23,244 nt of DNA from a virus (IMGVR_UViG_3300023543_000254:1-23244); one strand, 5' to 3'. Shown: positions 2,566 through 20,974, counted from the first letter of the stretch. A program made the numbers and translations. Notes: generated from the letters alone by a model not told the origin.

Positions 2566-2911
2566 TCTCTGCTCCTGTTGATACGGAAAGGGAAACAGGC
2601 ACACCGTTATTCCGCCGCCCGGTCAGCTCCACCACCATTGAACCGTCAAAATTGCTGTTGATGGTGATGGAATCCAGCGTCAGCCGTGGCTCCCAGCGAC
2701 TCAGCGCCACATACACTGCCGACATGACCTGCAGGCGTAATGCCGGATTTTGTGGCTGATCTATCAGTGCCGACAGCAGGGAACCATATTCCCGGCGAGC
2801 AATGCGGCTACCCTGCGGTGTCAGCAGAATGTCCCGCACCGACTGGCGCAGATGGTCAATATCAGTAATGGCTTTACCGCTGGTATTGTTCATCCCGCTA
2901 TAAAGCGTCAT
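2552..2911 (-). CDS. W: Baseplate protein W (gp25-like)
   Basis: 119-aa ORF MTLYSGMNNTSGKAITDIDHLRQSVRDILLTPQGSRIARREYGSLL...; ATG overlaps V stop (ATGA); position between V and J. Confidence 0.85.
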   Translation of the reverse strand: MTLYSGMNNTSGKAITDIDHLRQSVRDILLTPQGSRIARREYGSLLSALIDQPQNPALRLQVMSAVYVALSRWEPRLTLDSITINSNFDGSMVVELTGRRNNGVPVSLSVSTGAENGSD

Positions 2912-3486
2912 ACCGGGCCTCCGGTTGTATCGCCGCCTTTCAGGACGCCAGTATGCTGATGCACATCAACCACGATCCCGTTAGAACTCATCGCACCGCC
3001 GCCCTGGGTAACGCCGCCATTGATCACTACTTCACTATTAATACGCGTGCGGTCAGCCTCCAGCACAAACTCACTGGTTTTCAGGGTGATATTGTCGGCA
3101 GCCTCAATAACCATGGATTTGATGCCCCTGACATACCAGCGCCCGGTGGCGGGTTCGTATTCAAACCAGCCACCGTCAGGATGTTCTGTCACGCAGGCGT
3201 CCGCCGACGTCGACGGTGGTGCGAACTGATTCGAATAGACAGCGGGCAGCGCAAAGGCGGTCTCCAGATTGCCGCCCAGACTCAGCAGCACCACCTGCTC
3301 ACCTTCCGATGGTCGCCACCATGTCCGGGCATTCCCGGCACGCAGGGTCAGCCAGCTGATCCAGTTGGTTTCTAAGTCGCCTGTTTTCACCCGGCAAAGC
3401 CAGTTTTCCCTGTCCACTTCCGTGACTACACCAGTGCGGATCAGGTTGGTGATAAGGCGCATGATTTCGGTTAGTTGTGCATTCAT
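2908..3486 (-). CDS. V: Baseplate spike/assembly protein V
   Basis: ORF track starts at TTG 3507; ATG at 3486 gives MNAQLTEIMRLITNLIRTGVVTEV..., which aligns with recalled P2 gpV N-terminus. No good SD upstream. Confidence 0.85.
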   Translation of the reverse strand: MNAQLTEIMRLITNLIRTGVVTEVDRENWLCRVKTGDLETNWISWLTLRAGNARTWWRPSEGEQVVLLSLGGNLETAFALPAVYSNQFAPPSTSADACVTEHPDGGWFEYEPATGRWYVRGIKSMVIEAADNITLKTSEFVLEADRTRINSEVVINGGVTQGGGAMSSNGIVVDVHQHTGVLKGGDTTGGPV

Positions 3487-3531
3487 CCTTCTATAGTTGC
3501 AAAGCAAGATTTTTTTTCATCGTTGTGGCAG

Positions 3532-3549
3532 TGTATGATTTTTGGCACA
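3532..3549. promoter_or_regulatory. TGT-N12-ACA dyad, candidate Ogr/B-type late activator site for the V operon
   Basis: Sequence tgt-atgatttttggc-aca read directly; centred about 55 nt upstream of V ATG; P2-family late promoters carry this dyad near -55 (established knowledge). Confidence 0.35.
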
Positions 3550-3562
3550 ATTGAATTCTCAT

Positions 3563-4723
3563 ATGGAGATGACTGAAATGATCTTTGCTGCACGTTACTT
3601 GGTCGAGTTGCCTTATGTCCTCAATATTCCAGATGGTGATTATGATTTTCTATATGAAAATAACCATTTACGCTTAACAGTTCACAACGATTACTATGCA
3701 CTATTTAAAGATGCAAGCTTATTCCCTCAAACCCTATTAATCGGTACCAGAGAACAACTACTACCACATCACACAAATGAAAGAGGGATAATGAAATGCC
3801 GGACTATTATTTCTCTCGCCAACTATTGGGAATGTTTTGACCTTTTAGAAATATCACATGAAGAACTAATCAACTCTATAAGAAACCAAATAAGGAAAGA
3901 AGATAACTTCCCATCTGTGGAAGATGCTGAGATGTTCCTATCCAAAATGAGCCAGCAAGATATAGATAAAAAAATAGAGTTAGAGAGAAAAATAAAAACT
4001 GCTAGAGAGATATTTCCACCTAAAAGATCAGAGGAATGTATCGGAATAATAAACCACTTTATAAAACAGTATAGAGTTGCCTTTAAAGATCAATTTGCAG
4101 ACGAGATATCTCTTTATCAAGTTGGCTCAGGATTTACCAACGGAGTGTTACAAGAGCATTATTGCGATGGTATTAAGATAAGTGCAATTCCTTTAGTTGG
4201 AGTAATCACCCCATTAATGAGAGAAAGCTGGTATAAACACGATGAAAGTCTCATTGATAATTTCAAAAAACGTTTAATGTCAAATGAATTCAATGAACAT
4301 CCTGAACTATTATTGATTAGAGCAGACAATCTTGTTCATAAAGGTGCATTTAGATCAGCCGTAATTGAAGCATCAGCAGGCCTTGAAAGCTATATTCTCA
4401 GAAAAATTATTAATGCCTTTCATCGCAATGGTATCAATGAATGCCAGACAAAAGAAACATTAAATAAAAACTGGAAGTTCGATGATAGATGTAAAAAACT
4501 ATTCAAACAACTCTTTAACATCTCTGTACCCGAAATTGCGCCACTTGAGTGGCAACATGCAAATAAAAACAGGAAAGAATTACGTGACAAAATAGCTCAT
4601 ACATCACATGAACCAACAGAGAAAGAAACAAAAGAATTTATAAAAAGCATCAATTTATTAATTGAAAAAATAGACTCATACTTTAAGAAAATTAATGAAT
4701 CTAACGAATCAAAAAATTTATGA
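3563..4723 (+). CDS. Hypothetical protein, AT-rich cargo gene between S and V (ORF30-equivalent position); candidate defence/abortive-infection gene
   Basis: Long plus-strand ORF (track 3542..4723 from TTG; first ATG 3563; ATG 3578 has GGAG 9 nt upstream) in visibly AT-rich DNA between GC-rich S and V. No motif recognised with confidence; two Rx4-6H-like strings (RKIINAFH, RDKIAH) near C-terminus. Confidence 0.6.
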   Translation: MEMTEMIFAARYLVELPYVLNIPDGDYDFLYENNHLRLTVHNDYYALFKDASLFPQTLLIGTREQLLPHHTNERGIMKCRTIISLANYWECFDLLEISHEELINSIRNQIRKEDNFPSVEDAEMFLSKMSQQDIDKKIELERKIKTAREIFPPKRSEECIGIINHFIKQYRVAFKDQFADEISLYQVGSGFTNGVLQEHYCDGIKISAIPLVGVITPLMRESWYKHDESLIDNFKKRLMSNEFNEHPELLLIRADNLVHKGAFRSAVIEASAGLESYILRKIINAFHRNGINECQTKETLNKNWKFDDRCKKLFKQLFNISVPEIAPLEWQHANKNRKELRDKIAHTSHEPTEKETKEFIKSINLLIEKIDSYFKKINESNESKNL

Positions 4724-5147
4724 TTATCTCTTCTATAATATCAAAATCAGTATCATAAATTCCAAGTAACCTACGTTTAGCATAACGTATCTGTGGCCCC
4801 TTACGGCTGACGCGATCACGCAAGCCGTAATGGTGAACACGGGCAATGCGCTGTACCTTACCTTCAAACTGCACGCTGGCAGAGTCGGCGCTGGCGGCAG
4901 TTTTCAGGTATTTTGTGGTGCGAAGTTTTGTAAACATCTGCCGTTTGATACGGCCTTTTTTACTGCGTGCTGTTACTCGCCTCGGTTCATAGCTGCTGCC
5001 ATCAGGATTGCGTTGCATCCTGATGTTCTGCTGCTGTGTCCGGCGCAGTTCCTGCGCCAGCTGGCGCATCATGCGGCTTCTGGCGGCTGGTTCCAGATTC
5101 GCCAGCAAGGCACTCAGCCAGTCGTCCACTTTCTGCAGTTCAGCCAC
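4701..5147 (-). CDS. S: Tail completion protein S
   Basis: 148-aa ORF ...RNPDGSSYEPRRVTARSKKGRIKRQMFTKLRTTKYLK...VHHYGLRDRV... typical of P2 gpS; GTG start at 5147; last ~19 codons in AT-rich DNA, overlapping the 3' end of the cargo ORF. Confidence 0.8.
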   Translation of the reverse strand: MAELQKVDDWLSALLANLEPAARSRMMRQLAQELRRTQQQNIRMQRNPDGSSYEPRRVTARSKKGRIKRQMFTKLRTTKYLKTAASADSASVQFEGKVQRIARVHHYGLRDRVSRKGPQIRYAKRRLLGIYDTDFDIIEEIIINFLIR

Positions 5148-5571
5148 GTTTCACCGTCCACATTTCTTCAGGTTCATCAGGTTCCGCTATAGCTTCAACA
5201 CTCGACACACTACCGTCAGTGCTGACCAGCACACGCTCCGTCAGTTGCAGGTTCAGGCTGATATCACAGACATCGTTGCGCAGAATATCCACCTCAAAGG
5301 TGAATAGTTTTTCCCGTAACGCCGGGTTATTGATGGCATCGGGCTGGTTATCCCTCAGCCACAGCAAAACCGGGGCCATCAGCAGATTCTGGTCGCCGCT
5401 GAAATCCTCAATCACCGCGTTCAGGGTGTAACGGTACTCCCACGACATGGAGCTGGCCCCCGTGGCAACCAGCGAACCGTTATCCACAAACAGATGCAGT
5501 TTGTCCGGGTTATTGCGGACATAAGGCACCGCTTTATTGAGGGCGTGGCGCAGGGATTGTGGTTTGTTCAC
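5140..5571 (-). CDS. R: Tail completion protein R
   Basis: ORF 5140..5592 (TTG); GTG at 5571 with AGGAG 7 nt upstream gives VNKPQSLRHALNKAV..., aligning with recalled P2 gpR start. Confidence 0.8.
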   Translation of the reverse strand: MNKPQSLRHALNKAVPYVRNNPDKLHLFVDNGSLVATGASSMSWEYRYTLNAVIEDFSGDQNLLMAPVLLWLRDNQPDAINNPALREKLFTFEVDILRNDVCDISLNLQLTERVLVSTDGSVSSVEAIAEPDEPEEMWTVKRG

Positions 5572-10586: not shown

Positions 10587-10604
10587 TGTACCGACAACCA
10601 CACA
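10587..10604. promoter_or_regulatory. TGT-N12-ACA dyad in the O/P divergent late-promoter region
   Basis: tgt-accgacaaccac-aca read directly in the 142-bp O-P intergenic region; matches the P2-family late-promoter activator dyad. Confidence 0.35.
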
Positions 10605-10650
10605 AACCGCAGGCGGGGAAAGCCGTCATTCAAGGCTGTAGGTTTGTGCC

Positions 10651-12417
10651 ATGAACACCACACTGACACCCGCAGATCTCGATCCCCGTCGGCAGGCCAT
10701 GCTGCTGTACTTTCAGGGATACCGCGTAGCCCGCATTGCTGAAATGCTGGGCGAGAAAGTTGCAACCGTTCACAGCTGGAAAAAACGCGACAAGTGGGGT
10801 GACTATGGGCCGCTGGATCAGATGCAGCTCACCACCGCCGCACGCTACTGCCAGCTCATTATGAAGGAGCACAAAGAAGGGAAAGATTTCAAAGAGATTG
10901 ACCTGCTGGCGCGCCAGTCTGAGCGCCACGCGCGGATCGGCAAGTTTAACAATGGCGGCAACGAAGCCGACTTAAACCCTAACGTCGCCAACCGCAATAA
11001 AGGCCCACGCCGTCAGCCGGAAAAGAATGTTTTCACCGATGAGCAGATTGAGAAGCTGGAAGAAATCTTCCATTCCTCCATGTTCAACTACCAGCGCCAC
11101 TGGTGGGAAGCCGGAAAAACCAACCGCATCCGCAACCTGCTGAAGTCACGCCAGATCGGCGCGACCTTCTATTTTGCCCGTGAAGCCCTGATTGACGCCC
11201 TGCTTACCGGACGTAACCAGATTTTCCTTTCTGCCAGTAAGGCTCAGGCCCACGTCTTTAAACAATACATCATCGACTTCGCCAAAGAAGTCGAGGTGGA
11301 GCTAAAAGGCGATCCGATGGTGCTTCCTAACGGAGCCACGCTTTACTTCCTCGGCACCAATGCCCGCACGGCCCAGAGTTATCACGGCAACCTGTATCTG
11401 GATGAATATTTCTGGATACCGAAATTCCAGGAGCTGCGCAAAGTGGCTTCCGGGATGGCTATTCACAAAAAATGGCGACAAACCTATTTTTCCACGCCAT
11501 CCAGCCTGACCCACAGTGCTTATCCGTTCTGGTCCGGTGCGCTGTTCAACCGTGGACGCAAAAAAGCTGACAAGGTGGACATCGACCTGTCCCACAGCAA
11601 TTTGGCCCCCGGCCTGCTGTGCGCAGACGGGCAATACCGCCAGATAGTCACCGTGGAAGATGCGGTGCGCGGCGGCTGTAACCTGTTCGACCTCGACCAG
11701 CTACGCATGGAGTACAGCCCGGACGAATACCAGAACCTGCTGATGTGCGAGTTCGTGGACGATCTCGCGTCCGTGTTCCCGCTCAGCGAACTGCAGGCGT
11801 GCATGGTGGACAGCTGGGAAGTCTGGACCGACTTTCATGCACTGGCCCTGCGCCCGTTTGGCTGGCGCGAAGTGTGGATCGGTTATGACCCGGCAAAAGG
11901 TACGCAGAACGGCGACAGTGCCGGATGCGTGGTGGTGGCTCCGCCAGCCGTGCCGGGTGGTAAGTTCCGCATTCTTGAGCGTCACCAGTGGCGCGGGATG
12001 GACTTCCGCGCCCAGGCTGACGCCATCAAAAAACTCACCGAACAGTACAACGTGACCTATATCGGTATCGACTCAACCGGCGTTGGTCACGGGGTTTATG
12101 AGAACGTGAAAGCGTTCTTTCCTGCCGTCCGGGAGTTTGTCTACAACCCCAATGTTAAAAACGCCCTGGTACTCAAGGCCTACGACATTATCAGCCACCG
12201 CCGTCTGGAGTTTGACGCCGGGCACACCGACATTGCGCAGTCATTCATGGCAATCCGTCGCGCCACCACTGCCAGCGGCAACCGCCCGACCTATGAAGCC
12301 AGCCGCAGCGAAGAAGCCAGCCACGCCGATCTGGCCTGGGCAACGATGCACGCACTGTTTAACGAACCGCTGCAGGGCGAATCCGCCAATACCAGCAATA
12401 TTGTGGAGATTTTTTGA
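10651..12417 (+). CDS. P: Terminase large (ATPase) subunit P
   Basis: 588-aa ORF; N-terminus MNTTLTPADLDPRRQAMLLYFQGYRVARIAEMLGEKVATVHSWK... and C-terminus ...SEEASHADLAWATMHAL... closely match recalled P2 gpP. Confidence 0.9.
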   Translation: MNTTLTPADLDPRRQAMLLYFQGYRVARIAEMLGEKVATVHSWKKRDKWGDYGPLDQMQLTTAARYCQLIMKEHKEGKDFKEIDLLARQSERHARIGKFNNGGNEADLNPNVANRNKGPRRQPEKNVFTDEQIEKLEEIFHSSMFNYQRHWWEAGKTNRIRNLLKSRQIGATFYFAREALIDALLTGRNQIFLSASKAQAHVFKQYIIDFAKEVEVELKGDPMVLPNGATLYFLGTNARTAQSYHGNLYLDEYFWIPKFQELRKVASGMAIHKKWRQTYFSTPSSLTHSAYPFWSGALFNRGRKKADKVDIDLSHSNLAPGLLCADGQYRQIVTVEDAVRGGCNLFDLDQLRMEYSPDEYQNLLMCEFVDDLASVFPLSELQACMVDSWEVWTDFHALALRPFGWREVWIGYDPAKGTQNGDSAGCVVVAPPAVPGGKFRILERHQWRGMDFRAQADAIKKLTEQYNVTYIGIDSTGVGHGVYENVKAFFPAVREFVYNPNVKNALVLKAYDIISHRRLEFDAGHTDIAQSFMAIRRATTASGNRPTYEASRSEEASHADLAWATMHALFNEPLQGESANTSNIVEIF

Positions 12418-13442
12418 TGGGAAAGAGTAAGAAAAACCGCGCTGCGGCGACGAATCAGCTCAAGCATAAAAGCCAGACTTCAGCCGAAGCATTCAGCTTT
12501 GGCGATCCCGTTCCTGTTCTGGACCGCCGTGAACTGCTGGACTATGTGGAATGCGTACAGATGGACCGCTGGTATGAGCCGCCCGTCAGCTTTGACGGAC
12601 TGGCACGAACCTTCCGCGCTGCCGTGCATCACAGCTCACCGATTGCAGTAAAATGCAACATTCTGACCAGCACCTACATCCCTCACCCGCTGCTCAGCCA
12701 GCAGGCTTTTTCACGTTTTGTGCAGGACTATCTGGTATTTGGTAACGCCTACCTGGAGAAACGCACGAACCGCTTCGGTGAAGTTATCGCCCTTGAGCCT
12801 GCTCTGGCAAAATACACCCGACGCGGGTTAGACCTGGATACCTACTGGTTTGTGCAATACGGCATGACCACGCAGCCGTATCAGTTCACGAAAGGCAGCA
12901 TTTTCCATCTGATGGAACCGGACATAAATCAGGAGATCTATGGCCTGCCCGGCTATCTTTCTGCTATTCCGTCAGCCCTGCTCAATGAGTCCGCCACGCT
13001 GTTCCGTCGCAAGTATTACATTAACGGCAGTCACGCGGGCTTCATCATGTACATGACCGATGCCGCGCAGAACCAGGAGGACGTGAACAACCTCCGCAAC
13101 GCGATGAAAAGCGCCAAAGGACCGGGTAACTTCCGCAACCTGTTTATGTACTCACCTAACGGCAAAAAGGACGGGCTTCAGATTATCCCGTTGTCAGAGG
13201 TCGCGGCGAAGGATGAGTTTCTGAATATCAAAAATGTCAGCCGCGATGACATGATGGCTGCGCACCGCGTACCGCCTCAGATGATGGGGATAATGCCAAA
13301 TAATGTTGGGGGTTTTGGGGATGTGGAAAAAGCGAGCTTGGTCTTTGTTCGTAATGAACTTATTCCTTTACAAAAAAGGCTTGAGGAGGTAAACACATGG
13401 GTAAGTGATGAAATAGTTCGCTTTAAAGATTATGTTTTATAG
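12417..13442 (+). CDS. Q: Portal protein Q
   Basis: ORF track 12414..13442 from TTG; ATG at 12417 overlaps P stop; about 341 aa, matching P2 gpQ size and P-Q order. Confidence 0.9.
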   Translation: MGKSKKNRAAATNQLKHKSQTSAEAFSFGDPVPVLDRRELLDYVECVQMDRWYEPPVSFDGLARTFRAAVHHSSPIAVKCNILTSTYIPHPLLSQQAFSRFVQDYLVFGNAYLEKRTNRFGEVIALEPALAKYTRRGLDLDTYWFVQYGMTTQPYQFTKGSIFHLMEPDINQEIYGLPGYLSAIPSALLNESATLFRRKYYINGSHAGFIMYMTDAAQNQEDVNNLRNAMKSAKGPGNFRNLFMYSPNGKKDGLQIIPLSEVAAKDEFLNIKNVSRDDMMAAHRVPPQMMGIMPNNVGGFGDVEKASLVFVRNELIPLQKRLEEVNTWVSDEIVRFKDYVL

Positions 13443-13484
13443 TCACCTTAAAATTAAAATAACCATAAAACATTAGTAATCTAA

Positions 13485-13504
13485 AGAGGCGCTAGAGCGC
13501 CTCT
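13485..13504. terminator. Perfect 8-bp inverted repeat between convergent Q and ATPase genes, candidate bidirectional terminator
   Basis: agaggcgc-taga-gcgcctct read directly, flanked by U-rich sequence on both strands. Confidence 0.35.
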
Positions 13505-13514
13505 TCTAATTATC

Positions 13515-14822
13515 TCAACCTTCATAGAGAAGTTTTTTCTTACGTATCTCTTCACTAAATGTCTTGGAATTCAAGTCAATCAAATTAAGATCTCGAACTT
13601 TTCTAGATGCTGTATATTGACTAGTATCCAGCATATATGCCTCAAAAACTAAGCCATCAGCACCTTTCTTCAAAGTAACCCGAGACTGGACTAAATGCAC
13701 TAATCTTAAATCAATTAACTGGTTAATAGCATCCTTGACAGGGCCAGTCATTTTTTGATTAATTAGAAAAATATTACATTTTGCATCATTCAAACAAAAT
13801 GCCACAAGTTTTGTGAATGCTTCCTCCAAGGCAATACGATCATCATCAGCATCTAATTTAAATTCTTCACGCTTGATATCACCATATTCACCAGTAGCAA
13901 GATTCACATCTTCTGCACCAATTCGAGGACCTCTAGGATGATCTGGCCCTCTTTCTCTCGCATGGTTAATAGCTTTAGTAAATATCCCAATAAAGTCCCT
14001 AGTAACACCACCCGAAGCAATAATCAACCTATCTACTGCAGTCGTATTTAATAGTCCATTTACTGTGATAGGCGGCGTTTCTACCATTAGATTAGTGAGT
14101 ATTTTTTGCATAAACTGTTTTAAAGTTGCAAATTTTTCCAAAGAAATATCTATATTTATTTCTTTTGCATCATCACCAAGTTTAACACCAGTAGGAGGAT
14201 CTGTATGAATATACCATTCACTTCTATGCTTGATAGTACCAATTTTCAACCACAAACCATTTCCTTTGGCAACCCTATGAAAATAATCAATAACTTTAGC
14301 CTGATCACTTCTTCTAATATGATATAGATCATCAAGTATTAAATATGCCGGCCCTTCAGACAATTCGGAAAGCTTGTTAAAAAACCTTTGAAACTTAAGT
14401 ATATTTTGATGTAAGTATTCAGTTTTTAATGATTTATATCCTTCACTAATTTCTTTGGTACCTGTATTTCCTTTTTTAACTCCCACTCCTACATCTACTG
14501 GACCTTGCTTCAAGGAAGCATTACCAGAAGCTTCAAAACTTCTTGTGGAAGTTTCCTTTCTTTGCACATTAATTTCTTCTGGCTGCAAAAGTTTATTTTC
14601 TAAATCTTGAATGATGCTTTTGAGCTCACGGACAAGCTCATTTGTAGGATTTTTTTTGAAAGGTTTCCTTTCCGGCGCTCTACCAAAAATTCGATTCCAA
14701 AAAGTAGTTTTAGTAGCTGGGGTTAATGCAGCAGTTTCTAACCAAACCTCGAATTCTTGTAGGCTTTTAATAAGAACACTAATTAGGACATCAGGGTATG
14801 AATGACCTTTAAATGTCTCCAT
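13515..14822 (-). CDS. C-terminal segment of a P-loop ATPase (carries Walker B-like LILDD), AT-rich cargo
   Basis: 435-aa ORF in AT-rich DNA; hhhhDD motif (AYLILDDLYH) about 165 residues in; no Walker A of its own; upstream neighbour carries the Walker A in a different frame. Confidence 0.6.
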   Translation of the reverse strand: METFKGHSYPDVLISVLIKSLQEFEVWLETAALTPATKTTFWNRIFGRAPERKPFKKNPTNELVRELKSIIQDLENKLLQPEEINVQRKETSTRSFEASGNASLKQGPVDVGVGVKKGNTGTKEISEGYKSLKTEYLHQNILKFQRFFNKLSELSEGPAYLILDDLYHIRRSDQAKVIDYFHRVAKGNGLWLKIGTIKHRSEWYIHTDPPTGVKLGDDAKEINIDISLEKFATLKQFMQKILTNLMVETPPITVNGLLNTTAVDRLIIASGGVTRDFIGIFTKAINHARERGPDHPRGPRIGAEDVNLATGEYGDIKREEFKLDADDDRIALEEAFTKLVAFCLNDAKCNIFLINQKMTGPVKDAINQLIDLRLVHLVQSRVTLKKGADGLVFEAYMLDTSQYTASRKVRDLNLIDLNSKTFSEEIRKKKLLYEG

Positions 14823-14848
14823 ATCAACAAAAGAAATTGGTCTTCTAT

Positions 14849-15073
14849 CTATTGTAGATCTGCAACTACCTTCCTCAACAATGAGGACTTACCAGAGCCC
14901 CTTCTACCAAAAATCAAACTGTGCTGCTTGGCTTTCGATTGAGCAAGAACGCCAGGCGCGGGTTCTATGAATCTCTTGACATTTTCAGGCGTAGCCCTCA
15001 TAGCTTCATCACACAAAATGATCAAGTTATCTACTTGTTCATCTCTTAACTGAGATATTTCGTTTTTAGACAT
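14849..15073 (-). CDS. N-terminal segment of the same P-loop ATPase (Walker A GRRGSGKSSLL); probable frameshift-split gene
   Basis: 74-aa ORF with AAGGA RBS; Walker A at residues 56-63, then a stop; next ORF starts 27 nt downstream in the -1 frame. Confidence 0.55.
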   Translation of the reverse strand: MSKNEISQLRDEQVDNLIILCDEAMRATPENVKRFIEPAPGVLAQSKAKQHSLIFGRRGSGKSSLLRKVVADLQ

Positions 15074-15175
15074 TGGAAAATCCTTTTAGGAAAAAGCTCA
15101 AGCTATCAAGAATCCTTTATCCGAACAACTGTTTTAATTTATATATCTATCTGGTTCAGCGCGCGCTCGTATCCC

Positions 15176-15194
15176 CGCCACGCCTGCCCGCTTT
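15176..15194 (-). other. Candidate cos site (cohesive-end core)
   Basis: Minus strand reads ggcgtggcggggatacgag; first 13 nt identical to the 186 cos core as I recall it (GGCGTGGCGGGGA...), 14 of 19 match recalled P2 cos; orientation correct relative to Q; sits in a GC-rich island between AT-rich cargo blocks. Confidence 0.45.
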
Positions 15195-15239
15195 ATGTAG
15201 TGGTTTTCATGCAGGTGCATGATCTACGCAAAAGCCCGC

Positions 15240-15263
15240 CAGTTCTGGCGGGCCTTAGCGAAA
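15240..15263 (-). terminator. GC-rich hairpin followed by U-run on minus strand, candidate rho-independent terminator
   Basis: gcccgcc-agttct-ggcgggc with aaaa on the plus-strand 5' side (UUUU after the stem on the minus strand). Confidence 0.35.
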
Positions 15264-15526
15264 ACGATCCTCAAACGATCATGCAATCTCATGCAGCATA
15301 GACATGCACAGACGAGTAAAGCGAATCGGACCTTACGCAAGGTGAACTCCTCAGCGGGCATAATCAGTATGTCGGAAGATCTCTAAAAATAAATAATTCG
15401 GTTAACAGGTATGCTTACAAAAGCATATATTTGATTAAAAATCATGTAAGGGGGAGGATCTCAAACTGAATCGCCACGGGTTTTACAAATTTCGATAGTC
15501 TCTCTAACGTTTCGGCTGAGGTCAAA

Positions 15527-15952
15527 ATGAAAAGCTTTTACGTATTAATTTTAATTCTGGTTGCAAGCTTTGTTAGCGTCCCAGTTCAGGCGGTAACAGC
15601 TAAAAACTATGAGAAAGGAACTAAAGCTCAACAGAAATCAATATCTTACCTTTCATGTGCATTCTATGGCAGTAGCACACAATTAGATCCTAGCTACACG
15701 GAGCAAGTACCTACAGCCGATATCAAGATATTACAGAAAGCAGCTTACCACGCTTACAACGATGCGCTCTCATACTTTGGCTATGAGGAACCAGATCACG
15801 AACAACGCATAATTGATTATGCTGAATTTGTGGCGTCGCAAGAAGCTGTGTTATGGGATAAGCCGGGAATGAATGGAAAGCAGGTAACACTAATTGCTCG
15901 TTCTCTCTACAATGAGAGTAACTGTAACTTGTTACTGGACTCAATTAAGTAG
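15527..15952 (+). CDS. Small secreted/periplasmic protein of unknown function (signal peptide), AT-rich cargo
   Basis: 141-aa ORF; N-terminus MKSFYVLILILVASFVSVPVQA looks like a Sec signal peptide with AxA-like cleavage site; two Cys in mature part; TGAGG RBS. Confidence 0.65.
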   Translation: MKSFYVLILILVASFVSVPVQAVTAKNYEKGTKAQQKSISYLSCAFYGSSTQLDPSYTEQVPTADIKILQKAAYHAYNDALSYFGYEEPDHEQRIIDYAEFVASQEAVLWDKPGMNGKQVTLIARSLYNESNCNLLLDSIK

Positions 15953-16111
15953 GAAAAAGATGGTATTTTGCCCGTAGTTTCAACCTTAATCTCCGAACCT
16001 GTCGCAGAACGGGCGTTCACTCATCAAATAAACGCCACACCTAACGCCTCACTGTACTCGTTGTTCAACCTTGCTGACGCCAGAACCAAGTTCAGACGCC
16101 AGCAACTTTTC

Positions 16112-16345
16112 TTAATGCAGCCAGCTGTCGTCTTCCCACACCTTCTGCATAATCTTCATCACTTGTTTTCTTTCTTCGTCCAGTTGCAGTCCGGTCAGTT
16201 CCACACCGTTAGAGCTACCTTTGCGGATGCGAATTACCATTTTGGGATACAGGGGGCGCAGATTGCGGTAAAGCTCGGATTCAAGGGCGTCCAGGGTAGA
16301 CTGGCTAATCTTCTGCTCTTTATCGATCATTATTTCAATGCGCAT
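16112..16345 (-). CDS. dinI: DinI-like protein
   Basis: ORF track 16112..16417; ATG at 16345 with GAGGTGA RBS gives MRIEIMIDKEQKISQSTLDALESELYRNLRPLYPKMVIRIRKGSSNGVELTGLQLDEERKQVMKIMQKVWEDDSWL, which resembles E. coli DinI (MRIEVTIAKT...ALAGELSRRI...) in length and pattern. Confidence 0.8.
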   Translation of the reverse strand: MRIEIMIDKEQKISQSTLDALESELYRNLRPLYPKMVIRIRKGSSNGVELTGLQLDEERKQVMKIMQKVWEDDSWLH

Positions 16346-16355
16346 AAAGGTCACC

Positions 16356-16544
16356 TCAGCTGATGACATCCATTGAGCGGTTGTATTCGTGGGTTCTGAT
16401 TTTTGCCATGAGTTCATCAGTCAATTCAGAAACCCACTGCAGAGCCAGCCCCTTCTCTTCATCACTACACTCACTAGCCGCTACAAGCTTAAGAAAAAAA
16501 TCAATGCGCTGGAGCTTCAAAGACTCCAAAAAATAGTCCTGCAT
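16356..16544 (-). CDS. Small protein (62 aa) at head of LexA-controlled operon; possible Tum-like antirepressor
   Basis: ATG with strong AGGAGG RBS; 43 nt downstream of a perfect LexA box; function by position only. Confidence 0.55.
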   Translation of the reverse strand: MQDYFLESLKLQRIDFFLKLVAASECSDEEKGLALQWVSELTDELMAKIRTHEYNRSMDVIS

Positions 16545-16586
16545 CTTTCCTCCTATGACACCAAAGCAATACTGTATATATAACCA

Positions 16587-16602
16587 CTGTTTATATTTAC
16601 AG
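16587..16602. promoter_or_regulatory. LexA box (SOS operator) CTGT-N8-ACAG
   Basis: ctgtttatatttacag read directly, within an AT-rich promoter-like region upstream of the small-ORF/DinI-like operon. Confidence 0.6.
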
Positions 16603-16696
16603 TATATAATAATCTTACTGATGTAAAACGTTTTTTTACGTTCATCAGCCTGAAATGCCTGGTATTATTAAGAGCACGAATTGTTAACCCGCGTAA

Positions 16697-19069
16697 TTAA
16701 TACAGGTTCCGCCACTTATCATCTTCCTGCAAACGCTGGTTCCGATAGAAGATACGCAGGCCTGCTCCTGACGGAATACTGCCGCCGCGAAGGAGTAAAT
16801 CGACCTCTTTCTCGCTGCCATCAAATCCTCTGGACTTCAGTTCATAGACGAGCTGCTGTCGCTGATGGTCTGTAATTCGCTGTTTGTAGTCTTTACGCCG
16901 TTTCGGTTTCACCAGGCGTAACCTTGCAGCCAGTTCCCGGCGCTCTTTTTTGCTCATACTGTGCAGGTATTCGTGCAACTCCTTGTCATCCATGCGGGTA
17001 ATGTCCGTTCTGGTATCCCCATCAGCTGATTTGTCTTTCCCTTGTTGGTTCAAATTTTCAGCAAGGGGACAGTTATTGCCACGAGTCCAAGGGGCGCAAG
17101 CGCCCTGGTCGGCTGCCGCCTCCTGAACATCAACGGCCTTACGAACCATTTTCCACTTCACGGCATGAGTGCAGATCTTGCCCTCTGCAATAGGTGACCA
17201 GATGCCATAAATACGAATGCCGTGATCGCCATAGGCGGTCGGCTCTTCGTTGATTTCATAAGCGGTTCTGATGAGGTGATATTTGCGGGGAACCAGTACG
17301 CCGCCCTGCTTCATGATGTAGGTGGCAAAACAACCAGCATCAGCAGCAGCCAGGATGGCATCAAGGCGCGGGTTATCCAGTACCGGCGCACCTGCTTTTT
17401 TGTCCCCCTGTTGCCTTGCCGCCTGACCAGCCAGCAATCGCAGTTCACGGTAAGCCTGACGCCCCGGAATGCCAAAGAAGCGGAATTGCTGAACACGATG
17501 CAGAGACGCCCAGGCATTAACGTATTCAGCATTATCACGCAGGGATTTCCCCGTTTCCTTGCTGATCTCGCCAGCCAGACCACGCCCGTCAATGTTCTTA
17601 CTGATGTATTTCGCGATGTAGCTTGTTGGCGTACCTTTGCGCGGGTTAATCAACTCAGACTTAAAGCGCGGCCCAGTGTTATTGCCCAGTTCCTCGCGGT
17701 CTTCACGGATGGCAAACTTACGCAGTAATGCAGTGATGGCGCGGCGGTCTTTTTTGCGCATAAAACACAACAGGTGCCAGTGAACTGTACCGTCATGATG
17801 CGGCTCAGCCACCCGCACGCCATACCACCGCAATCCGGCTTTGTGCATCGCCTTACGAAATGCAGCAAACATGCCGACCAGATAATCACTGCTTTGTCTT
17901 ACCGTCGCATTTGTCCAAGTTGGGTTGGGCCTGCCATTATTTAGCGTGGAATGGAAACGTGACGGACAGGTGATGGTGTAGAAAACGGCGCAGTCACCGC
18001 GCATTTCCGCGATAAGCTCCAGGCCTTTAACACAGGCCATCATCTCATTGCGGCGATGCGCAGGGTTGCTGCTGCTGGCGTTTACCACATCCTCCATGTC
18101 CAGCGTGTCGCCGTCTTCGTTCACCAGTTCATGAGAACGAAAAAACTCCAGCGACTTACGGCGCTGCTCACGTTTATGCATCACGGCTTCATAGCTGACA
18201 TAGGGAGATGCTTTTTTGCTGACCAGGCAGACAGCACGCAACTGCTCTTCCCGCCATTCGCAACGCATCTTCCATAATTTCCGGTACCACCAGTCAGCGC
18301 ACAACATACGCGCCAGCGAACCCGGAATGAGTTCATAGGGCACGGGTTTACGGCGGTTTCTTTTCCGGCGGAGTTGCTCAAACGCAGGCGGGATGACATC
18401 CAGACGCAGGGTTTCCGCTGCCACCTTTTCCCATGTCTTGCGGATTTCTTCTGGCTTAACGTCATCGGTGACATACAAATCGCCACAAGCTGCATCAAGG
18501 CACATGCTCATATGCGCAGCTACCAGGGTGGACAGGCGTTTCACCTGATCCTGACTCATTTCAGGCAGGATCAGCAGGCCGTCCAGCCCTTCATGGCTTG
18601 CCATAAAGCGAAAAGAAGTGGATAGCTGACAGTCGCGTACATGCTCCAGCCGTTCCAGACATGGCTTAATCGTCTCACGCAAATAGCGGGAATAAGCCTT
18701 TGGCCTGCCCAGGCTGCTGAAGTATTCAATACGTTGCATCAGTGGCTTGCTGATATGGGAAGGCTGGGCATTAACGTCCGCCAGAATGACCATATCTGGA
18801 TTAAAACGCTGCTGCTCATGCGCCAGCTTTGCCCGACTAATGAGCTTATCCTGCTCCATTTCGCGCTGGACAGGATCACGGGATTCATTAAAGAAATAAC
18901 GCTCCCAGACCTGATCACTCAGTGCCTCGCGGCGCAGCTGTTCCTGCTCGTTATCGGCAGCGTACAGAGCGATCAGGTTTGAAAGCGCAGAAACTGAAGA
19001 TTGCTCTTCCGTCTCTACGTAAGGATTGATTGCTTTTTTCTCAGCATTCCAGGAATAGCTGTAGTTCAT
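16697..19069 (-). CDS. A: Replication initiation protein A (rolling-circle endonuclease)
   Basis: ORF track 16697..19120 (TTG); ATG at 19069 with GGAG upstream; contains HxH-like VHWHLL and tyrosine-rich YIAKYISK motifs expected for P2 gpA-type Rep proteins; size about 790 aa. Confidence 0.85.
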
Positions 19070-19899
19070 TACGCAATCTCCAGTTCGAGCTGTGAAGGCT
19101 GCAAACCATTCGACAGCCAATCAGAAACTGAAGGTGGGCGAACAGCTTCAATTGCACCTTTTAAAATTGCGCAACGGTTTTTCAGAATGACAGCTTTCAG
19201 CTCCTTTTCCGTCAGATTGCGCGAATACTCAGCCTCCTGAATAGCCCGCGTCAGCTCAGGATATTTGCTATTAAATTTGGGGACATTGCAGGCAAGATTT
19301 GTACTGTCGGCAGTCGCCAGTGGGTAATTTCCCAACACACGACCGTCAAGCATGCGCAAACCATGAACAGCTGTTTTGAAATTGTGTCGGCAATAAATTG
19401 CTTCAAAAGCGTCCTGCATACGACGATGCCAGTGCGCAGTTCTGATAGCCGCATATTCACCAGACGATCCAAAGCAGACACGAGGCCATTCACGACATAG
19501 CTCGATAAGCCGATCGATTGACTCGTGCAGATGCCAGACGGGAGTTGCCTTCCCGTAGAACATTTTCGGAACTTCGTTTATCAGGGCATCATTGTCACGT
19601 TCACCTCCGTCCACAACATCAGGAATGACAAAAAAAGCGACCTTAGGATGGTGGTAATAGTTCAGGAGCCATTTATAAAAATCACTCCAGTTAATTTTTA
19701 GCCCACGCACCCATGCAGAAAATGCGCCGTTATCAATGCCGACGACCTGAGCGTGCTGAATGGACGCCGCAATCTGATCTGGTCGTACATAGGAGACGAA
19801 AGCGCCAGCTCCGCTCACCGCAATACGATGAACGTCGCCAGCACTTCCCCAGACAGGCGTCCCATGGAAATGATGAATTCCGTGGTGCATTTCTTTCAC
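19069..19899 (-). CDS. Hypothetical protein (276 aa), translationally coupled between dam and A
   Basis: Start overlaps dam stop, stop overlaps A start (TAATG); no confident family call; weak resemblance of VGIDNGAF to the TGT/DpdA substrate motif (TDSGGFQ). Confidence 0.7.
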
Positions 19900-20750
19900 A
19901 CTTGCACCCCGAAAATAACAGTAGAGTCACGTCCCCTACTAAAATCGGCACTAAACCAATTAGCAGATTTAGTGGCAATCATCTCTGTTGCAAATTTTCC
20001 CTCCCCCGCTGCAACGCCGATGCTGCGTTTCGCCCTGATGTAGTGGTGAGTGAAATTACGATAAAGGGACCGGGTCAAAGACGTGTTACTGTTAGAAACA
20101 ATGACCGGATGTCCTTCTGATGACCGATGTTCAAGAATGGATGCCAGGTGATACTGATCATCTTCAGTGAAACCATCAGTGTGATAGCCGGAAAACGTAC
20201 CGTCATAAGGCGGATCGCAATACACCACATCCCCCACCTTCAACATCGCCAGCGTTTCATCAAAGCTGGCGCAGATAAACGTTGCCCGCTGGGCTTTCTC
20301 TGCAAATGCGCGAATTTCTTTTTCAGGGAAATACGGATTTTTATAATTACCGTAGGTAATGTTGAAATGCCCGCTCTTGTTATAGCGACATAAACCACGG
20401 TAACCGTGACGATTGAGATACAGGAAATATACCGCTTTCATGAAATCAGTAATTTCAGTGGAGTAATTAAACTCCTGCCTTATGTTGTAATAAGCCACCT
20501 CCCTGTTTGCTTCCTCAAATAAAGCTCTGGCACGAGATATAAACGCCTCACAATCAGCAGCAACCTTTTTATAGAGGTTGATTAAATCAGGATTAATATC
20601 CGCAACAAGATAGCTGGGGTAATCCGTCTCCATCATCACTGCACAGGAACCCGCGAAAGGTTCAACCAGTCGCGGGCCAGCAGGAAGATGCTTTTTCAGT
20701 TCGGACATTATGGCGGTTTTATTTCCTGCCCATTTCAGGATGGTGCTCAT
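19896..20750 (-). CDS. dam: Dam-type DNA N6-adenine methyltransferase
   Basis: ORF track 19896..20810; ATG at 20750 with GGAGGTG RBS; motifs KWAGNK, FAGSCAV (FxGxG) and catalytic DPPY read directly. Confidence 0.85.
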
Positions 20751-20974
20751 ACAGCACCTCCGTTGTAATGTTTGCCTTTCAGCTCTGCGATTTCCTGACA
20801 GGTAATGCAAAGCTGCACACCCGGAATGGCACGGCGGCGTGCTGGCGGAATTGGCGCTTCACACTCAACGCAAAGCACGCGGGACACGCCCGGCGTTTTG
20901 GCACGGGCAGCACGGATATGGCGTTGGCGTTCTTCTTCAACGCGCTGCTGTACGAGATCCATTGCATCAGCCAT
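20747..20974 (-). CDS. TraR/DksA-family C4 zinc-finger protein
   Basis: 75-aa ORF with CVEC...N17...CITC four-cysteine pattern, as in P2 ORF82-type proteins; ATGA overlaps on both sides. Confidence 0.75.
   Translation of the reverse strand: MADAMDLVQQRVEEERQRHIRAARAKTPGVSRVLCVECEAPIPPARRRAIPGVQLCITCQEIAELKGKHYNGGAV

What the first reader, a model, noticed from the sequence alone, without database searches (positions are those of the whole stretch)
3487..4760. AT-rich cargo gene (393 aa, no recognisable family) inserted between tail genes S and V
The GC-rich P2-like backbone is interrupted between S and V by about 1.25 kb of clearly AT-rich DNA carrying one plus-strand ORF, opposite in orientation to all flanking tail genes. 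This is the position where P2 carries ORF30, a site where related phages carry variable accessory genes. I recognise no catalytic motif. Two Rx4-6H strings (RKIINAFH, RDKIAH) sit in the C-terminal part and could mark a HEPN-like RNase, as in many abortive-infection proteins, but that is weak motif-level evidence. A single large uncharacterised protein in a prophage accessory slot is a strong candidate for a new single-gene anti-phage system.
Basis: partly seen in the sequence, partly recalled or inferred. Interest (0 to 1): 0.8.

Follow-up and report, generated by a model that had tools for sequence, protein, structure and literature searches.

The report
Prophage cargo gene encoding HEPN RNase
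A P2/186-like prophage carries, in a variable slot between two tail genes, one foreign gene for an unnamed two-domain protein whose C-terminal half is a HEPN-type RNA-cutting domain, which makes it a credible but untested single-gene anti-phage candidate of a familiar general kind.

Summary
An AT-rich cassette (GC about 0.33 against 0.55) lies between tail genes V and S and carries one plus-strand ORF that chance cannot explain. The likely product is 381-384 aa, not 393.

The N-terminal 235 residues model confidently but match no solved or viral predicted fold.

The V-S slot is variable. It is empty in about two thirds of sampled related E. coli prophages. Elsewhere it holds other single genes (TIR, FRG/PDC-S15, DUF2971/PDC-S31, DUF6216). 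This gene occurs in 21 of 5,426 complete E. coli genomes. Distant homologues outside Enterobacterales sit beside KAP, BrxC-like and YobI-like NTPases.

The best reading is a prophage-borne, self-contained, infection-activated HEPN ribonuclease acting by abortive infection, analogous to HepS, ApeA and DARNA. It is a new family with a new sensor domain. Function, target and trigger are untested.

The parts
3578..4723 (+). Cargo CDS (381 aa from ATG 3578, stop TGA 4721-4723). Alternative starts are ATG 3569 (384 aa, the RefSeq call) and TTG 3542 (393 aa, the longest ORF). Residue numbers in this report use the 384-aa form.
3565..3568 (+). GGAG Shine-Dalgarno-like element. It lies 9 nt upstream of ATG 3578 and directly abuts ATG 3569.
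   Evidence: sequence read; inference
3569..4282 (+). N-terminal domain (residues 1-238): a beta-sheet with a four-helix insertion and a beta-hairpin. ELP (13-15), N162 and G192 are conserved. It has no assignable fold and is the proposed sensor or regulatory module.
4301..4720 (+). C-terminal HEPN domain (residues about 245-384).
4583..4600 (+). Catalytic Rx4H motif RDKIAH (R339...H344, with D340 as the polar residue after R).
   Evidence: The only invariant columns in 36 sequences of 17-48% identity. R in 143/146 and H in 145/145 of aligned C-domains; N/H/D follows R in 133/146. Coordinates.
4349..4390 (+). Conserved first HEPN helix FRSAVIEASAGLES, including E273 (4385-4387). This position is acidic in 146/146 aligned relatives.
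4400..4423 (+). It is not conserved in the family and is not a catalytic motif.
   Evidence: alignment; coordinates
3532..3549 (.). TGT-N12-ACA dyad upstream of V. It is the probable activator (Ogr/B-type) box of the late promoter for the V operon. It belongs to the phage backbone and lies 20-29 bp from the cargo start codon.
   Evidence: Conserved in the aligned region of phages 500465-1 and Cartapus. It is one of only 3 matches in the window; the other two lie in the divergent O/P late promoter region. Its identity as an activator box rests on my own knowledge of P2 late promoters.
4701..4790 (-). AT-rich replacement 3' end of gpS (last 30 or so codons). It travels with the cassette, and its last 23 bp overlap the cargo CDS convergently.
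2908..3487 (-). gpV baseplate spike gene (left flank, backbone).
4791..5147 (-). gpS tail completion / virion morphogenesis gene, backbone part (right flank).

Best explanation
The cassette is a horizontally exchanged, single-gene accessory module in the S-V (orf30) slot of a P2/186-like prophage. It encodes a self-contained, infection-activated HEPN endoribonuclease.

Shown here: the C-terminal domain has the HEPN fold and the full catalytic signature (R339, D340, H344, and acidic E273). The N-terminal 235 residues form a separate, conserved domain of no known fold. There is no partner gene and no RNA partner.

Inferred: the lysogen makes the protein from its own promoter in an auto-inhibited state. 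The N-terminal domain senses a product of a superinfecting phage, either a protein, a nucleic acid or a small molecule. Sensing allows two HEPN domains to form the composite active site. RNA is then cut without metal ions, most likely in tRNA anticodon loops by analogy with HepS, ApeA, DARNA and PrrC. Translation stops and the infection aborts, which protects the lysogenic population and so the prophage.
For: HEPN assignment:
- R339 and H344 are the only invariant columns in a 36-sequence alignment of 17-48% identity.
- Across 150 C-domain relatives, R is present in 143/146, H in 145/145, N/H/D follows R in 133/146, and E273 is acidic in 146/146. These are the features Anantharaman et al. 2013 describe for HEPN (PMC3710099).
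- Members hit HEPN-clan Pfam models: RiboL-PSP-HEPN in 9 members (best 6e-7), plus Ymh, HEPN, Apea, DUF4145, Csm6 and AbiV.

Modular sensor-effector design:
- The same C-domain is joined to other N-terminal regions in 35 proteins of 350 aa or more.

Defence context:
- The slot is empty in about 33 of 50 sampled related prophages where both flanks joined. In about 15 it holds other single genes: TIR, FRG, DUF2971, DUF6216 and hypotheticals.
- FRG, DUF2971 and TIR occupants hit PADLOC PDC-S15, PDC-S31 and PDC-S66/SpbK respectively.
- Distant homologues sit next to KAP NTPase and VspR, next to a BrxC/PglY-like ATPase and a helicase, and next to a YobI-like ATPase.

Mobility:
- The cargo is 99% identical in backbones whose V proteins are about 90% identical to this window's.
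- It is present in both E. coli and Klebsiella.

Stand-alone nature:
- No second ORF, Rfam hit or repeats were found.

Precedents:
- Single-protein HEPN abortive-infection tRNases are known: HepS (PMC13043305), ApeA and DARNA.
Against: - There are no functional data of any kind.
- PADLOC has no model that recognises the protein (best E 0.16). The window protein's own best HEPN Pfam hit is below threshold (PF18735, E 0.014, 15.7 bits against a cut-off of 28.4).
- No consensus sigma-70 promoter was found in the short region upstream of the gene, so expression in the lysogen is assumed rather than shown.
- All 19 close-to-middle-distance homologues (41-100% identity) sit in exactly the same slot. 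This could also reflect a function tied to P2 biology rather than general defence.
- HEPN domains also serve in toxin-antitoxin, RNA-processing and signal-degrading roles.
- The tRNA target and the sensing role of the N-terminal domain are argued by analogy only.
Confidence: 0.6

Rival explanations
1. It is an addiction or stress toxin rather than an immune protein. On this reading it is a HEPN RNase that stabilises the prophage, or modulates host physiology or competition, and has no role in sensing foreign phages.
Against: There is no antitoxin gene, MNT partner or RNA antitoxin in the island. A large conserved N-terminal domain is more typical of sensor-effector fusions. Alternative cargo in the slot and the neighbours of distant homologues are defence-type.
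Confidence: 0.13
2. It is a counter-defence or signal-degrading enzyme used by the phage. For example, a Csm6/Csx1-like HEPN could cleave cyclic oligoadenylate or other nucleotide second messengers, or host RNAs, to help P2-like phages overcome host immunity.
For: Relatives of the C-domain give weak Csx1/Csm6 HEPN hits. Some HEPN nucleases are known to deplete cyclic oligoadenylates (stated in the DARNA preprint introduction). The gene is phage-borne.
Against: No CARF-like or ring-nuclease fold was found in the N-terminal domain. The gene lies on the opposite strand to, and between, late operons rather than among early genes. Distant homologues are chromosomal and lie beside defence NTPases, not in phages. 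Anti-defence genes were found to be rare in P2-like phages (28 of 1,511; PMC13586616).
Confidence: 0.07
3. It is a phage-intrinsic accessory factor. On this reading the HEPN protein processes or regulates P2-type late transcripts, or acts non-catalytically as a binding module in tail morphogenesis, given its constant position between S and V.
For: All 19 loci examined place it between V and S. It abuts the V-operon activator box and overlaps the end of S.
Against: It is absent from about 98% of related E. coli prophages, including very close relatives that are functional phages. Its composition is foreign. The strictly conserved catalytic residues argue for an active nuclease. More distant family members occur outside prophages.
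Confidence: 0.07

Closest known systems
HepS (Gifsy-1 prophage, Salmonella; Sargen et al. 2026, PMC13043305; PDB 9oik)
   Different: HepS is described as a single HEPN-domain protein (chain length 218) that forms a tetramer and is triggered by siphovirus tail-tip protein J. The protein here has an additional N-terminal domain of about 235 residues with unknown fold. No sequence similarity to HepS was detected. It resides in a myovirus (P2-like) tail-gene slot.
ApeA (Gao et al. 2020; Ec2ApeA, PDB 9hxb; preprint 10.64898/2026.01.26.701840)
   Same: It is a single-gene defence with a non-catalytic region N-terminal to a C-terminal HEPN domain, and it is a tRNA anticodon nuclease. There is a weak profile match at the Rx4H region (E 0.14). 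Five of 36 relatives weakly hit PF18739.
   Different: ApeA is 593 aa, forms doughnut-shaped oligomers and is activated by 5'-phosphorylated deoxydinucleotides. The window protein gets no ApeA hit in PADLOC or Pfam, so it is not a member of that family.
DARNA / PD-T7-3 (preprint 10.64898/2026.02.22.705581)
   Different: The domain order is reversed (HEPN at the N-terminus, an all-helical Pds5-like C-terminal domain). It forms a dodecamer activated by ssDNA presented by phage SSB. No PADLOC PD-T7-3 hit was found.
Csm6/Csx1 CARF-HEPN effectors of type III CRISPR
   Different: No CARF or Rossmann-like N-terminal fold was found. There is no CRISPR neighbourhood in any locus examined.
PrrC / RloC anticodon nucleases
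   Same: An N-terminal regulatory or sensing module with a C-terminal HEPN anticodon nuclease, activated during phage infection (PMC3710099).
   Different: Their N-terminal module is an ABC-type ATPase, and they are linked to restriction-modification loci. No P-loop motif or ATPase fold is detected here.
P2 orf30 and the other P2 accessory loci (old/tin between A and Q; Z/fun)
   Same: The same genomic logic applies: low-GC foreign genes at fixed sites between conserved P2 genes. This gene occupies the orf30 position between S and V (PMC3091744). The A-Q and Z/fun sites are proven defence hotspots (PMC9122126, PMC9519451).
   Different: In the papers I could read, the S-V slot is not one of the characterised defence hotspots. 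It is at most covered by the phrase 'within the tail genes' in PMC13586616. I did not compare the protein with P2 Orf30 itself.

Membership tests
HEPN superfamily (Pfam clan CL0291; Anantharaman et al. 2013) | All-alpha up-down helical bundle fold | tested here: met
HEPN superfamily (Pfam clan CL0291; Anantharaman et al. 2013) | Conserved Rx4-6H motif | tested here: met
   R339-x4-H344 is invariant in A1, A5 and A6. R is present in 143/146 and H in 145/145 of the relatives.
HEPN superfamily (Pfam clan CL0291; Anantharaman et al. 2013) | Polar residue (N/D/H) immediately after the motif R | tested here: met
   D340 in this protein. Across relatives: N 64, H 52 and D 17 of 146. The criterion is taken from PMC3710099.
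HEPN superfamily (Pfam clan CL0291; Anantharaman et al. 2013) | Second conserved acidic residue upstream of the motif | tested here: met
   Position E273 is E in 119 and D in 27 of 146 relatives.
HEPN superfamily (Pfam clan CL0291; Anantharaman et al. 2013) | Metal-independent endoribonuclease activity from a dimeric composite active site | not testable with these tools
   No multimer modelling or biochemistry was available.
A named HEPN family (RiboL-PSP-HEPN PF18735, Ymh PF09509, Apea PF18739, Csm6 PF09670, AbiV, AbiU2) | Score above the family's curated cut-off | tested here: not met
   The window protein's best hit is PF18735, E 0.014, 15.7 bits against a cut-off of 28.4. The full-length protein has no HEPN hit at all. 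This is therefore a new HEPN family, not a member of a named one.
Known or candidate defence systems in PADLOC-DB v2 | Significant match to a system model | tested here: not met
   Only PDLC01843 CARF_HEPN_CSX20, at E 0.16.
Csm6/Csx1 CARF-HEPN | N-terminal CARF (Rossmann-like) sensor domain and association with CRISPR loci | tested here: not met
HEPN-MNT (HepT/MntA) toxin-antitoxin | Adjacent nucleotidyltransferase antitoxin gene | tested here: not met
   The island contains a single ORF. Its neighbours are gpV and gpS.
Type III toxin-antitoxin (AbiF-like HEPN with RNA antitoxin) | Tandem repeat RNA antitoxin next to the toxin gene | tested here: not met
   No tandem repeats, Rfam hits or meaningful repeats in 3300-5000.
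P2-like phage accessory (moron / defence hotspot) cargo | Variable occupancy at a fixed site between conserved core genes, with foreign composition and alternative cargo of defence type | tested here: met
   The slot is empty or differently filled in related prophages. GC is 0.33 against 0.55. Alternative cargo hits PDC-S15, PDC-S31 and TIR models.
Anti-phage defence system (functional definition) | Reduces phage propagation when expressed | not testable with these tools
   This needs a phage challenge experiment. Neither the accessions nor characteristic peptides were found in the DefensePredictor supplementary tables that are held.

The most novel reading that the evidence does not exclude
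The N-terminal 235-residue domain is a previously unseen sensor fold that recognises a trigger from competing phages, or from P4-type satellites. The cassette is also wired into P2 late transcription: its 5' end abuts the Ogr/B-type activator box of the V operon, and its 3' end overlaps S convergently. On this reading the prophage's own lytic programme silences the nuclease by promoter occlusion and antisense read-through. That would be a transcription-based way for a prophage to spare itself, distinct from the trigger-variant evasion described for HepS.
Probability: 0.15. Interest if true: 0.75.

Novelty: new variant of a known kind. Interest (0 to 1): 0.55.

Why it matters
If confirmed, this would have three consequences.

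1. It would add a new family to the single-protein HEPN abortive-infection nucleases. About 70 full-length representatives at 50% identity were recovered, spanning Enterobacterales, Aeromonas and Alteromonas. Its sensor domain has no structural precedent, so it could reveal a new infection cue.
2. It would establish the S-V (orf30) junction as a further defence hotspot of P2-like phages, alongside A-Q and Z/fun. The slot is easy to mine because it holds one gene at a time, and DUF6216 in BL21 derivatives is another uncharacterised occupant.
3. It would offer a compact, 1.15-kb, self-contained sensor-RNase for mechanistic study.

None of this would overturn current concepts. The general logic of a prophage hotspot carrying a HEPN effector fused to a variable sensor is already well established.

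Tried and rejected
- **CysRS similarity.** The hits (PF01406 E 3e-4, TIGR00435 E 5.5e-4, residues 68-133) are below threshold. They rest on an LPHH-NE string and disappear when the family profile is searched against the PDB. I treat them as chance.
- **RKIINAFH as a second HEPN motif.** It is not conserved.
- **Partner gene or RNA antitoxin.** None found. The antisense ORFs of 56 aa inside the CDS are unsupported.
- **Transposon or integrase-type insertion.** There are no flanking direct or inverted repeats. The junctions lie at the V-promoter box and inside S, which fits exchange by recombination.
- **Sigma-70 promoter or terminator.** The scan found nothing upstream of the gene and no excess over shuffles. 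A TATGAT hexamer at 3534-3539 lies inside the activator box and lacks a good -35.
- **Database searches that found nothing.** The protein is not in INPHARED phages or PLSDB plasmids by tblastn. The scan of GTDB representative genomes found no confirmed relative. AFDB Foldseek was unavailable.
- **Literature.** Rousset 2022, Vassallo 2022, the iLund4u preprint and Moura de Sousa 2026 do not describe this gene or a characterised S-V defence hotspot. The DefensePredictor supplements that are held contain neither its accessions nor its peptides, though some files were truncated. Brenes & Laub 2025 could not be read.

Full report
**1. Observation**

The window is a P2/186-like prophage. It encodes portal, terminase, capsid, lysis, tail and baseplate genes, gpA, a CII/CP76-type regulator and a CI repressor. 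GC content drops from about 0.55 to 0.30-0.39 between roughly 3400 and 4800.

The only long ORF in that stretch is 3542-4723 on the + strand. The flanking genes gpV (2908-3487) and gpS (4701-5147) are both on the - strand. The ORF cannot be a chance product. The probability of no stop in 384 codons at the island's composition is about 3e-14. The longest ORF in 500 shuffles was 143 codons, against 394 observed.

The start is most likely ATG 3578, with GGAG 9 nt upstream; most homologues begin MIF. ATG 3569 is the alternative, used by RefSeq and matching PHROG 28299.

**2. Boundaries**

I aligned the region with an empty-slot relative (Escherichia phage 500465-1, where V and S are 68 bp apart) and with phage Cartapus, which has a different 176-aa + strand gene in the slot.

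- Backbone homology runs from V through a conserved TGT-N12-ACA dyad at 3532-3549.
- Homology resumes only at about 4790, inside S.
- The last 30 or so codons of S have GC 0.28 here and 0.26 in Cartapus, but 0.57 in the empty-slot phage. Cassettes therefore bring their own S tail.
- The cargo stop overlaps the S stop convergently by 23 bp.
- The dyad occurs only three times in the 23-kb window. The other two copies lie in the divergent O/P late promoter region. I read it as the late-activator box of the V operon, on the basis of my own knowledge of P2 late promoters.
- No repeats, Rfam families or tandem arrays occur in the island.

**3. The protein**

Pfam, NCBIfam and PADLOC give nothing above noise. 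The word-indexed search found 20 clusters, all labelled 'hypothetical' and where named from Enterobacterales (Escherichia, Enterobacter, Cronobacter, Citrobacter, Pantoea), down to 33% identity. The exact protein is called in E. coli and Klebsiella pneumoniae. The exhaustive profile search found 198 representatives at 50% identity. Among the best 150 plus the first set, 69 have both domains, 81 have only the C-terminal domain (35 of these are at least 350 aa with other N-termini), and 18 are mostly fragments with only the N-terminal part.

The sequence evidence agrees with the fold evidence:
- In a 36-sequence alignment of the C-domain at 17-48% identity, the only invariant columns are R339 and H344.
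- Over 150 relatives, R is present in 143/146 and H in 145/145. The residue after R is N, H or D in 133/146. E273 is acidic in 146/146. This is the signature described for catalytically active HEPN domains (PMC3710099).
- Individual members hit HEPN-clan Pfam models: RiboL-PSP-HEPN, Ymh, HEPN, Apea, DUF4145, Csm6 and AbiV.
- The window protein itself stays below every family cut-off, so it represents a new HEPN family.

**4. Context**

*Occupancy in E. coli.* The cargo DNA is in 21 of 5,426 complete E. coli genomes, including EPEC E2348/69. The neighbouring V gene is in 1,031 genomes. An evenly spaced sample of 60 of the 1,046 matching records breaks down as follows:
- about 33 have an empty V-S junction;
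- about 15 hold other single genes: a TIR-domain protein, an FRG-domain protein, DUF2971, DUF6216 (also in BL21 derivatives) and several hypotheticals;
- 2 hold this gene;
- the remaining 10 do not join V to S.

Three of the four alternative occupants I scanned hit PADLOC candidate defence families: PDC-S15, PDC-S31, and PDC-S66/SpbK for the TIR protein.

*Association with the slot.* All 19 loci holding a 33-100% identical homologue place it between V and S. These are Pantoea, metagenomic and IMG/VR contigs. Nearly identical cargo (99%) occurs in backbones whose V proteins are about 90% identical to this window's V, which points to cassette exchange between backbones.

*More distant members.* More distant full-length members, about 25-40% identical to one another in alignment A6, are not in prophages. 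They lie next to:
- a KAP NTPase, VspR and a DUF3644 (HEPN) gene;
- a BrxC/PglY-like ATPase and a helicase;
- a YobI-like ATPase;
- in one case, the edge of a glycosyltransferase cluster.

*Literature.* The S-V position is where P2 carries orf30, one of three loci regarded as horizontally acquired (PMC3091744). The papers on P2 defence hotspots characterise the A-Q and Z/fun sites (PMC9122126, PMC9519451, the iLund4u preprint). The 2026 survey mentions hotspots 'within the tail genes' (PMC13586616). None of them describes this gene.

**5. Mechanism**

Shown:
- a two-domain protein with an intact HEPN catalytic constellation;
- no partner gene or RNA;
- residence in a variable cargo slot whose other occupants are defence-like;
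- modular reuse of the HEPN domain with other N-termini.

Inferred:
- the protein is an auto-inhibited RNase;
- its N-terminal domain senses infection;
- activation forms a dimeric HEPN active site that cuts RNA, most likely tRNA anticodon loops as in HepS, ApeA, DARNA and PrrC;
- the outcome is abortive infection.

I put this at about 0.6. The rivals are an addiction or stress toxin (0.13), a phage counter-defence or signal-degrading enzyme (0.07) and a P2-intrinsic factor (0.07). The remainder is unassigned.

One speculative point deserves a test. The gene is squeezed between the V-operon activator box and the convergent end of S. The prophage's own late transcription could therefore silence it.

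**6. Comparison and novelty**

The protein works like the single-protein HEPN defences but belongs to none of them:
- It has no ApeA, PD-T7-3, Csm6 or other model hit.
- Its domain order is opposite to DARNA.
- It has an extra domain compared with HepS.
- It has no CARF domain, MNT partner or RNA antitoxin.

It is best described as a new variant of a known kind: a new HEPN family with an orphan putative sensor domain, in a P2 slot not yet characterised as a defence hotspot.

I score interest at 0.55. It is a good, cheap experimental candidate, but the category is already crowded. DefensePredictor alone validated four new HEPN systems. I cannot fully exclude that this gene has been tested in work I could not read.

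Noticed in passing
window 13443-16696: The classical P2 defence hotspot, between portal gene Q (12414-13442, +) and replication gene A (16697-19120, -), is also AT-rich (GC 0.32-0.43). It holds three unrecognised ORFs: 13515-14822 (-, 435 aa, with only a sub-threshold ORC/CDC6-like AAA hit), 15527-15952 (+, 141 aa) and 15968-16363 (+, 131 aa). None has a PADLOC hit. This is a second uncharacterised candidate defence locus in the same prophage.
   Followed up: partly
window 3532-3549, 10587-10604, 10645-10662: TGT-N12-ACA occurs only three times in the window. All three are at late-operon promoter regions: upstream of V, and in the divergent O/P region. The box upstream of V is centred about 54 bp from V's ATG, and the box at 10587 is centred about 55 bp from P's ATG.
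   Followed up: partly
window 4701-4790 (- strand): The last 30 or so codons of gpS are AT-rich (GC 0.28) and differ in sequence from the empty-slot relative. Cartapus, which has a different cargo, also has an AT-rich S tail. Cargo cassettes appear to be exchanged together with a replacement S C-terminus.
   Followed up: yes
L001 (E. coli E2348/69, NC_011601.1 873-879 kb): In E2348/69 the prophage carries an inversion. gpS is annotated as a truncated pseudogene (residues 1-126) several kb away, so the break lies at the island junction. A 'recombinase family protein' (invertase-like) lies immediately downstream of the cargo gene.
   Followed up: no
E. coli prophages related to window 2900-5200 (hits H57-H116): The V-S slot holds a repertoire of alternative single genes: a TIR-domain protein (- strand), an FRG-domain protein (PADLOC PDC-S15), DUF2971 (PDC-S31), DUF6216 (including BL21-AI and NEBExpress) and several hypotheticals. 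About two thirds of the sampled prophages have it empty.
   Followed up: partly
window 19896-20810 (- strand): An orphan Dam-type D12 N6-adenine methyltransferase (PF02086, 7.7e-76; PADLOC oMTase, 1.5e-108) in the early region of the prophage.
   Followed up: no
L025 4910-7146: A distant homologue (P0172) overlaps by 4 nt with an upstream 364-aa ORF of unknown function. It is followed by an AAA protein, a 1,237-aa BrxC/PglY-N/DUF6079 protein and a helicase. It may be part of a multi-gene system in that lineage.
   Followed up: no
window 2908-3507: The mechanical ORF for gpV extends to a TTG at 3507. Homology and annotation in relatives place the start at ATG 3487 (193 aa).
   Followed up: yes
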